Assembly: GCF_054482595.1 (NCBI RefSeq)
Contig: NZ_CM137008.1
DNA length: 64,000 nt
Strand: one strand, 5' to 3'
A program made the position numbers. Below are positions 18,468 to 21,400 of this stretch, piece after piece (positions within the stretch are counted from its first letter, which is position 1; each line of letters begins with the position of its first letter).

Positions 18468-21400
18468 TAGTGTCCTTCGTGGCTGTAGTAAAAGACCGGT
18501 AATCCCAGCTTAAGGCGTAGCGCCAGTAAGCGGGCAAAAAAGCCGAATACCAGGGTGGAGATAATTACCACATCATGATTAGAAACATAGTGTTGCAGCG
18601 CGATGTACAGCACGGCGGAGGCAAATGAGACACCGGCATACAACTCTTTCTGGAATACCAGTGGGATGCGTTTACAGAACATATCGCGCAAAACGCCGCC
18701 AAACACGCCGGTGGTTACCGCCGCGACAACGGCAATAATTGGGCCGTGCCCCATATCCAGTGCAACCTGTGCCCCGATGATAGAAAAGACCACCAGTCCG
18801 AGCGCATCGAGCACCAGAAACACTTTGCGCAGGTAAGGCATTACAGGAGCAACGATAGTGGTGAGTACTGCGGCGGTAGCGACGATAATCACATATTCCG
18901 GGTGTTTGACCCAGCCGAGCGGATAGTGGCCCAGCAGAATATCGCGCACTGACCCTCCGCCAATTGCGGTGGCGGTCGCAATAATAATTACGCCAAATGT
19001 ATCCATGCGCCGTCGTCCGGCCGCCAGCGCCCCCGTCATGGCTTCGGCAGTAATGCCAACCAAATACAAAATGTGTAACAGCATGGTTCTCTCCCTAAAA
19101 ATCTGTCTGGCAGGGTAGCGATTTGTGCGCATTGTCACGATTGAGATTTTTTAAGGTGAGGGGAAATTGATAACTTGTAGTTATGTGAAATCGCTATTTT
19201 CTGTAGCAGAGATGCATTCTTCTGACTTCTTGTCTGAGAAAATGCATAAGAAAAAATAGGTTAAAACTGAGGGGGGAAAAGAAAGGTGCAATATTTAGCC
19301 ATTGTGTTCACTGCACCTGGACCTTGGCTTACGCATCGGGTGTCTCAATCAACAAAAAGAGTTTTTAGTTTCTGCTATTTCTTCTCTGTAATTTTTACAC
19401 TGTTTTCCAACTGCTTGATGCTGACCTGCGGGGTCGGCAACTCCTCAGGCATGGTTCCGCCAAGTTCCTGAATGGTTTGCCTCACCTTGCGACCCACGTC
19501 AAAGTGTGTGGTGTTTGCTTGCTGTTTTGAATTCACGCCATCCCGCTTGAGTTTTTCTTCTGTTTGGGTAGCTCGAAAGAGATTAGCCGCCAGTTCTGTT
19601 GAACCCATATGATCCAGGATCTTCTGATTCTTTTTCAGCCCCTTCCGCTGATGAATAGCTTTCTGATCTAATCCACCATACAGCCCCCGGTAACCATGAT
19701 TCTGAAATATGGCGAAATCGATAGCTGTCGCTACCCCAGCTTGCTGCGCTGCCTCAACCAATTGTTTGTTATGTTCTTTCAATTCATTTCTCAGAAAAAG
19801 ACGCTTTTCGTCTTCACGAAGTTGCCTGAAAGCTTCATCGTCAGCCAGCTCCTGCCGTCGGGTCTGGATAGCAAAATAAGTTTGCCCTGCCGCAATAACC
19901 GGTTTCGCAGGGTCGCCGTTTTGTACTACCAGGTAACAGGCATAGCGGGAGAGATGAACATCTTCAAGTTCTCGTTGAGCCCCTGAACCTAATACAACCA
20001 TTTTGGTGGTTTCAACGAAATGGTCAGATGCAGCTTGATTGCTGGCTTCGCACGCTTGAGTCGCGCGGGCCAGTACCTTTTGAAAATTGCGCCAGTCCCG
20101 ATAATCCAGTAACGGTGCCAATTCTCTAGCTGACCAAAATTCTTGCCCTTCAGTGCCATAATGCCGTATTTCTTCAAAAGGTTGATGATGTTCGTTCATT
20201 GCCCACTCCATGTGATATCGATTGCAAAGAAAGTAAATCTGTAACTGTATTTATATACAGTTGTGAGTATCTCACGTTCTCAGTGTGCTGGGCAAAAAAA
20301 CATCGCAAAATCTGGAGCAGGCACGCAAAACAGAATTGAAGTTGCGGGGAAGAAAAATGCCGCTCTGTTTGAGTGGGCGGCATTTGTGAAGGCTGAAAAG
20401 TAAGAATTGGCGTTACGAGTTATTCAATGTTCTGAATCTGCTCGCGCATCTGCTCAATCAACACTTTCAGCTCAATCGCGGAGTTTGTCACTTCGGCATT
20501 GATAGACTTCGACGCAAGAGTGTTCGACTCGCGGTTGAATTCCTGCATCATAAAGTCCAGACGACGACCAACGGCTTCTTTTTTCTTCAGAATGTTGTAG
20601 GTCTCTTTGACATGCGCTTCCAGGCGGTCCAGTTCTTCGGCAACGTCAATTCGTTGTGCCAGCAGAACCAGCTCCTGCTCCAGACGGTTGTTTTCCAACT
20701 GAACCTGAGCATCTTCCAGCTTCGCGACCAGACGCTCACGCTGCCATTGCAGGATTTCCGGCATATGGGCGCGGACTTTGACCACTTCGGCGGTGACGCC
20801 TTCCAGACGCTGCTCGATCAATGCTTTCAGTGCCTGACCTTCGGTTTCGCGCGCGACAATAAAGTCGTCCAGCGTACCATCCAGCGCCGCGAGAATTTCA
20901 GCGGCAATGGCGTCAAGATCCTGCTCCTGGGCTGCCATCACGCCCGGCCAGCGTAGAATATCAACCGGGTTGATTTCCCCTTCGTCACTCTGCATTTTTA
21001 CCCAGTTCGCGGCAGTTACCAGCTGTTTAGCCAGTTTTTCGTTGAGGATCAGCTCACCTTGCGCGCTAACATCTGGCTCATAGCGCAGGGTACATTCCAC
21101 TTTACCGCGCGTCAGGCGAGAACGAATACGCTCGCGAACGACAGGTTCAAGGCTACGGAACTGCTCCGGCAGACGAAAGTAAGTTTCCAGATAACGCTGG
21201 TTTACCGAGCGCATTTCCCAGGTTGCGCTCCCCCATTCACCCTTGATTTCACGCCGGGCGTAGGCGGTCATACTGCGGATCATAGACGTTCCTGTTTATA
21301 AAAGGAGAGGTGGAAGGATTATAGCCATCGATGCCTTGTCAGGATAGGAATAACCGCCGGAAGTCCGTATAATGCGCAGCCACATTTGTTTCAAGCCGGA

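What the first reader, a model, noticed from the sequence alone, without database searches (positions are those of the whole stretch)
20230..20265. LexA operator upstream of dinD
CTGTATTTATATACAG at 20245..20260 fits the LexA box consensus and lies 46 bp upstream of the dinD start, consistent with dinD being a known SOS gene. It is a positive control that the regulatory architecture is intact in this strain.
Basis: partly seen in the sequence, partly recalled or inferred. Interest (0 to 1): 0.15.

Follow-up and report, generated by a model that had tools for sequence, protein, structure and literature searches.

The report
Known LexA operator of dinD
This is the well-known binding site through which the SOS repressor LexA keeps the E. 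coli DNA-damage gene dinD switched off; it is intact here and identical to the laboratory-strain site, so the finding is correct but ordinary.

Summary
CTGTATTTATATACAG lies at 20245..20260. It is the core of the 20-mer AACTGTATATAAATACAGTT when read on the minus strand. The window is an E. coli chromosome segment (selC…ligB-yicG-dinD-yicC-rph-pyrE…). dinD is on the minus strand (20199→19375), and the near edge of the box is 46 nt from the A of its ATG.

A LexA matrix built from 17 other published K-12 sites scores the box 25.1 bits out of a possible 30.5. The next best hit in the window scores 15.5, and the best of 200 simulated windows scores 19.3. The box and about 150 bp around it are identical to K-12 MG1655. 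The published K-12 dinD box has the same sequence, and dinD induction there depends on LexA.

The likely mechanism is that a LexA dimer sits at or just after the transcription start of a predicted extended −10 promoter, and RecA-stimulated LexA self-cleavage releases it. The promoter position is inferred, not mapped.

Verdict: already known, low interest.

Two side observations go beyond the window:
- In 221 of 5426 complete E. coli genomes an ISKox3 element splits this box within its AT spacer.
- dinD relatives in other genera mostly lack a LexA box and often sit inside type I restriction-modification operons.

The parts
20243..20262 (.). LexA operator (SOS box), 20-bp dyad. Minus-strand reading is AACTGTATATAAATACAGTT; the core CTGT-N8-ACAG lies at 20245..20260.
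   Evidence: sequence; 25.1 bits with dinD left out of the matrix; top hit in the window; identical to K-12; published K-12 dinD box has the same sequence.
19375..20199 (-). dinD coding sequence (274 aa), DNA damage-inducible protein D, with an N-terminal Bro-N domain.
   Evidence: RefSeq annotation of a 100%-identical genome; NF008573 equivalog, E 1e-151; Pfam Bro-N, E 3e-11.
20206..20209 (-). Shine-Dalgarno GGAG, 6 nt before the dinD ATG at 20199.
   Evidence: Read directly. It supports the 20199 start over the ATG at 20211.
20266..20274 (-). Predicted extended −10 element TGaGATACT (hexamer GATACT at 20271..20266). Inferred, not mapped.
   Evidence: best-scoring −35/−10 pair in the intergenic region. 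TGnGATAnT is kept in the otherwise divergent strain HH45, in an alignment with no gaps across the −35 to −10 stretch. The stricter consensus scan found no promoter.
20290..20295 (-). Predicted −35 element TTGCCC, 18 bp upstream of the −10 hexamer. Inferred.
   Evidence: TTGC is kept in HH45.
20347..20385 (-). Terminator-like hairpin plus U-run after yicC (AUGCCGCCC…GAGCGGCAU-UUUUUCUU). It separates dinD from read-through from yicC.
   Evidence: minimum free energy −12.4 kcal/mol. The loop or bulge is too large for the simple scan.
20420..21283 (-). yicC coding sequence, the upstream neighbour on the same strand.

Best explanation
The 20-bp dyad at 20243..20262 is the LexA operator of the E. 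coli SOS gene dinD. In undamaged cells a LexA dimer binds the two CTGT/ACAG half-sites. The operator lies immediately downstream of a predicted extended −10 promoter (TTGCCC-18 bp-TGaGATACT), so it would cover roughly −3 to +17 relative to the expected start near 20259. Bound LexA would therefore block RNA polymerase at initiation. After DNA damage, RecA filaments on single-stranded DNA stimulate LexA self-cleavage, the operator empties and dinD is transcribed. Because the site is close to consensus (published heterology index 2.2), repression should be tight and release should need substantial LexA depletion. Shown here: the site exists, it scores as a strong LexA box, it sits upstream of dinD, and it is identical to the K-12 site. 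Taken from the literature on K-12: LexA-dependent, damage-inducible dinD expression. Inferred: the promoter elements, the start point and hence the steric mechanism.
For: The sequence and coordinates are confirmed. The leave-one-out matrix score is 25.1 bits, against 15.5 for the next hit and 19.25 for the best of 200 simulated windows. The locus is dinD. The intergenic region is 99% identical to K-12, with the box and about 150 bp around it identical. The published K-12 box has the same sequence, and LexA dependence was shown by RT-qPCR in lexA mutants. Published values are HI 2.2, 9.8-fold AZT induction and 12-fold lexA dependence. dinD is listed among genes with a known SOS box, and dinD::lacZ is used as an SOS reporter. 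The best promoter candidate lies directly upstream of the box, and its TG-n-GATAnT and TTGC motifs survive in a divergent lineage. No gene on the + strand could be the target; the next + strand gene is rph at 21410. No Rfam family matches the region.
Against: No experimental transcription start for dinD could be retrieved, so the position of the operator relative to the promoter is a prediction. The consensus promoter scan at its own thresholds found nothing. The primary binding papers (Lewis 1994, Fernandez de Henestrosa 2000, Wade 2005, Ohmori 1995) are not held, so physical LexA binding rests on secondary citations and on my own knowledge. lexA and recA are not in this window. A LexA box is not a conserved feature of dinD relatives in other genera, so comparison across genera gives no independent support.
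Confidence: 0.95

Rival explanations
1. The site is a chance AT-rich palindrome with no regulatory role.
For: The bare pattern CTGT-N8-ACAG is not rare: 0.56 matches are expected per window, and 13 of 100 shuffles gave at least 2.
Against: The full 20-mer scores 25.1 bits, above all 200 simulated windows. It sits 46 nt before an SOS gene and is identical to the published K-12 operator, whose gene is LexA-dependent. The 80-bp stretch around the box is present in one piece in 4172 of 5426 E. coli genomes.
Confidence: 0.01
2. The dyad acts mainly at the RNA level, as a hairpin in the dinD 5' leader that affects stability or translation, rather than as a protein operator.
For: The dyad folds as an 8-bp hairpin in a leader model (−16.3 kcal/mol for 79 nt, z = −1.98).
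Against: Any perfect dyad folds this way. The z-score is marginal. The predicted start near 20259 would leave out much of the 5' arm. No U-run follows the hairpin. No Rfam family matches. LexA dependence of dinD is documented.
Confidence: 0.02
3. The box is a genuine LexA site, but it acts by overlapping a −10 element inside the box (TATAAA or TATATA at 20257..20250) rather than by covering the start of an upstream promoter.
For: The spacer contains TATAAA, a 5 of 6 match to TATAAT. LexA boxes commonly overlap −10 elements, which I state from general knowledge.
Against: There is no acceptable −35 at 15–19 bp and no TG extension, and the hexamer lacks the conserved final T. It did not pass even the lenient scan.
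Confidence: 0.15

Closest known systems
E. coli K-12 dinD (pcsA) LexA box, AACTGTATATAAATACAGTT
   Same: The 20-mer and flanks are identical, as are the gene, the yicC-dinD-yicG neighbourhood and the distance to the start codon.
   Different: The operator itself does not differ. The strain is not K-12: rph is full length and there are four small differences elsewhere in the intergenic region (two substitutions and two single-base indels).
Other high-affinity LexA operators of the E. coli SOS regulon (umuDC, sbmC, recN, tisB/istR)
   Same: They share the CTGT-(AT-rich N8)-ACAG dyad, and the matrix scores fall in the same range (24.7–28.2 bits against 25.1).
   Different: There is a single box here, whereas lexA, recN and ydjM have multiple boxes (my own knowledge). 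The position relative to the promoter is only predicted here.
dinD-family genes inside type I restriction-modification operons in other bacteria
   Same: The encoded protein is 63–85% identical across very distant phyla.
   Different: Those copies have no gammaproteobacterial LexA box upstream. In 37 of 80 loci they lie within 1.5 kb of hsdM or hsdS. The SOS operator is specific to the Escherichia copy and to one Citrobacter copy.

Membership tests
Gammaproteobacterial LexA operator (SOS box) | Inverted half-sites CTGT and ACAG separated by 8 bp. | tested here: met
   CTGTATTTATATACAG at 20245..20260.
Gammaproteobacterial LexA operator (SOS box) | Overall fit of the 20-mer to TACTG(TA)5CAGTA, within the range of validated sites. 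| tested here: met
   It matches 17 of 20 consensus positions and scores 25.1 bits with dinD left out, 4th among 17 published sites and above all 200 simulated windows. The consensus is taken from PMC6590174.
Gammaproteobacterial LexA operator (SOS box) | Location in the promoter region of the regulated gene. | tested here: inconclusive
   The box is 46 nt upstream of the dinD ATG in a 220-bp intergenic region, after a terminator-like hairpin. The promoter is only predicted (TTGCCC-18-TGaGATACT), the strict scan found none, and no mapped start was retrievable.
Gammaproteobacterial LexA operator (SOS box) | Orthology or identity with an experimentally characterised operator. | tested here: met
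   Identical to K-12 MG1655 and to the published dinD box.
Gammaproteobacterial LexA operator (SOS box) | LexA-dependent, damage-inducible expression of the downstream gene. | not testable with these tools
   Shown for K-12 in the literature: PMC11228462 Table 1, PMC3009722 RT-qPCR and the dinD-lacZ reporter. Not measured for this strain.
Gammaproteobacterial LexA operator (SOS box) | Physical binding of LexA protein. | not testable with these tools
   Gel-shift and ChIP-chip reports (Lewis 1994, Wade 2005) are cited from memory. Of the primary binding papers, Wade 2005 and Ohmori 1995 were looked up and are not held.
DinD (NCBIfam NF008573, DNA damage-inducible protein D) | Full-length match above the equivalog cut-off. 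| tested here: met
   504 bits against a cut-off of 242, covering residues 1–274. The Bro-N domain is at residues 10–105.

The most novel reading that the evidence does not exclude
The operator in this window is ordinary, but the comparison suggests two things I did not find described. First, SOS control of dinD may be a recent innovation of the Escherichia lineage (with some Citrobacter), laid onto a horizontally mobile gene that elsewhere belongs to type I restriction-modification operons. Second, the 8-bp AT spacer of this LexA box (ATATAAAT) is a repeated target of ISKox3. The element splits the operator in about 4% of complete E. coli genomes, in both orientations, and probably cuts dinD off from its promoter and from LexA control in successful clinical lineages.
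Probability: 0.4. Interest if true: 0.3.

Novelty: already known. Interest (0 to 1): 0.06.

Why it matters
For this window it matters only as a sanity check. A textbook SOS operator is present, intact and correctly placed, so sequence-only reading of regulatory sites works here. It also means dinD in this strain should behave as the standard SOS reporter gene does in K-12. The wider comparison is mildly useful. LexA control of dinD cannot be assumed in other Enterobacterales, and it cannot be assumed in E. coli strains that carry ISKox3 in the box.

Tried and rejected
- The consensus promoter and terminator scan of 20100..20500 found nothing at its thresholds. A more lenient scan of my own was needed.
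- Rfam at E ≤ 1 over 19300..21500 gave no match.
- A mapped dinD transcription start was not obtained. The Cappable-seq supplement is cut before 3.8 Mb. The Kim 2012 supplements do not mention dinD. Thomason 2015 is not held. Conway 2014 has no supplements held.
- The primary papers I looked up are not held: Ohmori 1995, Wade 2005 and Uranga 2011.
- One literature search (dinD/orfY/pyrE) returned only irrelevant word matches.
- A naive position-by-position comparison with strain ABWA45 failed because of indels. BLAST showed the window is collinear with it from 1634 to 36504.
- The other matrix hits in the window (61172..61191 at 15.5 bits, 33374..33393 at 14.5 bits) were considered as further LexA sites. 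They were rejected because they are intragenic and within the range of simulated maxima.
- A weak hit at 20286..20305 (7.5 bits) overlaps the predicted −35. It is far below any validated site, so it was rejected as a second box.
- The multiple alignment with Yersinia and Pseudocitrobacter upstream regions is too poor to serve as a footprint. A shared GTGAGATA about 70–76 nt before the ATG is only suggestive.

Full report
**Observation.** The + strand reads …gtaaCTGTATTTATATACAGttgt…, with CTGTATTTATATACAG at 20245..20260. On the minus strand the 20-mer at 20262→20243 is AACTGTATATAAATACAGTT. The strict pattern CTGT-N8-ACAG occurs twice in the window against 0.56 expected, and 13 of 100 shuffles reached two matches. 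The 8 fixed bases alone therefore prove little.

I built a symmetrised weight matrix from 17 published K-12 LexA sites (PMC3009722 Table 4), leaving dinD out. The 20-mer scores 25.08 bits of a possible 30.5. The next hits in the window score 15.5 and 14.5 bits, and both lie inside genes. The best score in 200 simulated windows was 19.25, with a mean of 12.0. The site ranks 4th among the training sites and matches 17 of 20 consensus positions (consensus from PMC6590174).

**What the locus is.** The window is an E. coli chromosome segment. Its first part runs from tRNA-Sec (1636..1730) through yicJ, recG, spoT, gmk, ligB, yicG, dinD, yicC, rph, pyrE, slmA and on into the waa genes.
- The 1.2 kb around the box is 100% identical to many RefSeq genomes, in which dinD is annotated at the position equal to window 20199→19375 on the minus strand.
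- The protein matches the NCBIfam equivalog 'DNA damage-inducible protein D' (E 1e-151) and has a Bro-N domain.
- A GGAG at 20209..20206 fits this start rather than the ATG at 20211.
- yicC ends at 20420 and is followed by a terminator-like hairpin with a U-run at 20385..20347. dinD should therefore have its own promoter in the remaining ~150 bp.

**Comparison with the characterised operator.** The intergenic region is 99% identical to K-12 MG1655, and the box and about 150 bp around it are identical.
- The published K-12 dinD box is ACAACTGTATATAAATACAGTTACA, the same sequence.
- In K-12, dinD has a heterology index of 2.2, 9.8-fold induction by AZT and 12-fold dependence on cleavable LexA (PMC11228462).
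- LexA dependence was confirmed by RT-qPCR in lexA(Def) and lexA3 strains.
- dinD is listed among genes with a known SOS box, and dinD-lacZ is a standard SOS reporter.

**Mechanism.** The best promoter candidate in the intergenic region is TTGCCC (20295..20290), an 18-bp spacer, then TGaGATACT (20274..20266), which is an extended −10.
- Strain HH45 is only about 65% identical in this stretch, yet it keeps TTGC and TG-g-GATAAT at the same spacing.
- The expected start is near 20259, so the operator would span about −3 to +17, and bound LexA would block initiation.
- RecA-stimulated LexA cleavage would then release the site. This step is established SOS knowledge and was not tested here.
- The promoter and start point are inferences. 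The strict scan found no promoter, and no mapped start could be retrieved.
- A rival placement, with a −10 inside the box, has no usable −35.
- The dyad also folds as an RNA hairpin. That follows from its symmetry, and no Rfam family matches.

**Variation in E. coli.**
- An 80-bp stretch centred on the box is present in one piece in 4172 of 5426 complete genomes, at ≥99% identity in 2498.
- Strain C 237-04 (O2:K2:H1) has one spacer change (…AAACACAG, 23.0 bits).
- Strain HH45 has a dinD pseudogene and a decayed box (CTGTAGAAAATTAATG, 4.8 bits).
- In strains Survcare045 and Ec42 an ISKox3 (ISL3-like) element sits inside the box. Its 8-bp target duplication, ATATAAAT, is exactly the spacer, leaving CTGT-ATATAAAT | IS | ATATAAAT-ACAG.
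- Strain ET979 has the same target but the opposite orientation, so this is an independent event.
- An 80-bp junction probe is fully covered in 221 of 5426 genomes. Many are clinical isolates and they are probably clonal.
- The two junction sequences score about 0 bits as LexA sites.
- The box in this window is intact.

**Relatives elsewhere.** A scan of one genome per species returned 80 loci encoding proteins 63–85% identical to DinD. They come from very distant phyla, including Chlamydiae, Chlorobi, Bacillota, Campylobacterota and Lentisphaerae, which indicates horizontal spread.
- 37 of the 80 loci have hsdM within 1.5 kb, and 8 of those also have hsdS.
- Four loci (Yersinia massiliensis, Pseudocitrobacter, Providencia, Morganella) have yicC upstream, as E. 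coli does.
- The LexA matrix finds a strong box upstream only in Citrobacter werkmanii (23.1 bits), whose dinD carries in-frame stops.
- Yersinia, Serratia, Providencia, Photorhabdus, Enterobacter, Morganella and Pseudocitrobacter have no box above 10 bits.
- SOS control is therefore not a trait of the family. It is specific to the Escherichia copy.

**Verdict.** The finding is correct and already known. It is a valid positive control and of low interest in itself. The side observations are modestly interesting but lie outside this window.

Noticed in passing
Orthologous site in other E. coli: L006 1700..3000, L009, L008 4457..4470 (equal to window 20249..20256): ISKox3 (ISL3-like) is inserted inside the dinD LexA box, and its 8-bp target duplication ATATAAAT is exactly the spacer of the box. 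It occurs in both orientations, so there were at least two events. The junction is present in 221 of 5426 complete E. coli genomes.
   Followed up: partly
L010–L089 (dinD relatives from other species): The DinD protein is 63–85% identical across very distant phyla. 37 of 80 loci have type I R-M hsdM or hsdS within 1.5 kb. Only Citrobacter werkmanii (a pseudogene) has a strong LexA box, and the loci from Yersinia massiliensis, Pseudocitrobacter, Providencia and Morganella that share the yicC neighbour have none.
   Followed up: partly
L007 2021..3035 (E. coli HH45): This lineage has a divergent yicC-dinD spacer, a frameshifted dinD pseudogene and a decayed LexA box at 4.8 bits. Gene and operator appear to have decayed together.
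   Followed up: partly
window 19375..20199 compared with other E. coli: The dinD body is mosaic across E. coli. K-12-like strains align over only 82% of the 1.2-kb query under megablast, some strains have a locus about 222 bp shorter, and others match only the yicC end.
   Followed up: no
window 21410..22126: rph is full length (238 aa, as in the RefSeq WP_001247093.1 annotation), unlike the truncated rph of K-12 MG1655. The strain is therefore not K-12.
   Followed up: no
window 1..1730: tRNA-Sec (selC) lies at 1636..1730 on the minus strand. The sequence before it (1..1633) does not match strain ABWA45, which has IS3 and integrase remnants there. selC is a classic island integration site.
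   Followed up: no
window 36504..38803 and 59099..60504: These stretches do not align with strain ABWA45. One lies in the outer part of the waa LPS-core cluster and the other in a YadA-like adhesin gene.
   Followed up: no
window 61172..61191, 33374..33393, 20286..20305: These are weaker LexA-matrix hits of 15.5, 14.5 and 7.5 bits. The first two are intragenic and the third overlaps the predicted dinD −35. All fall within the range seen in simulated sequence.
   Followed up: partly
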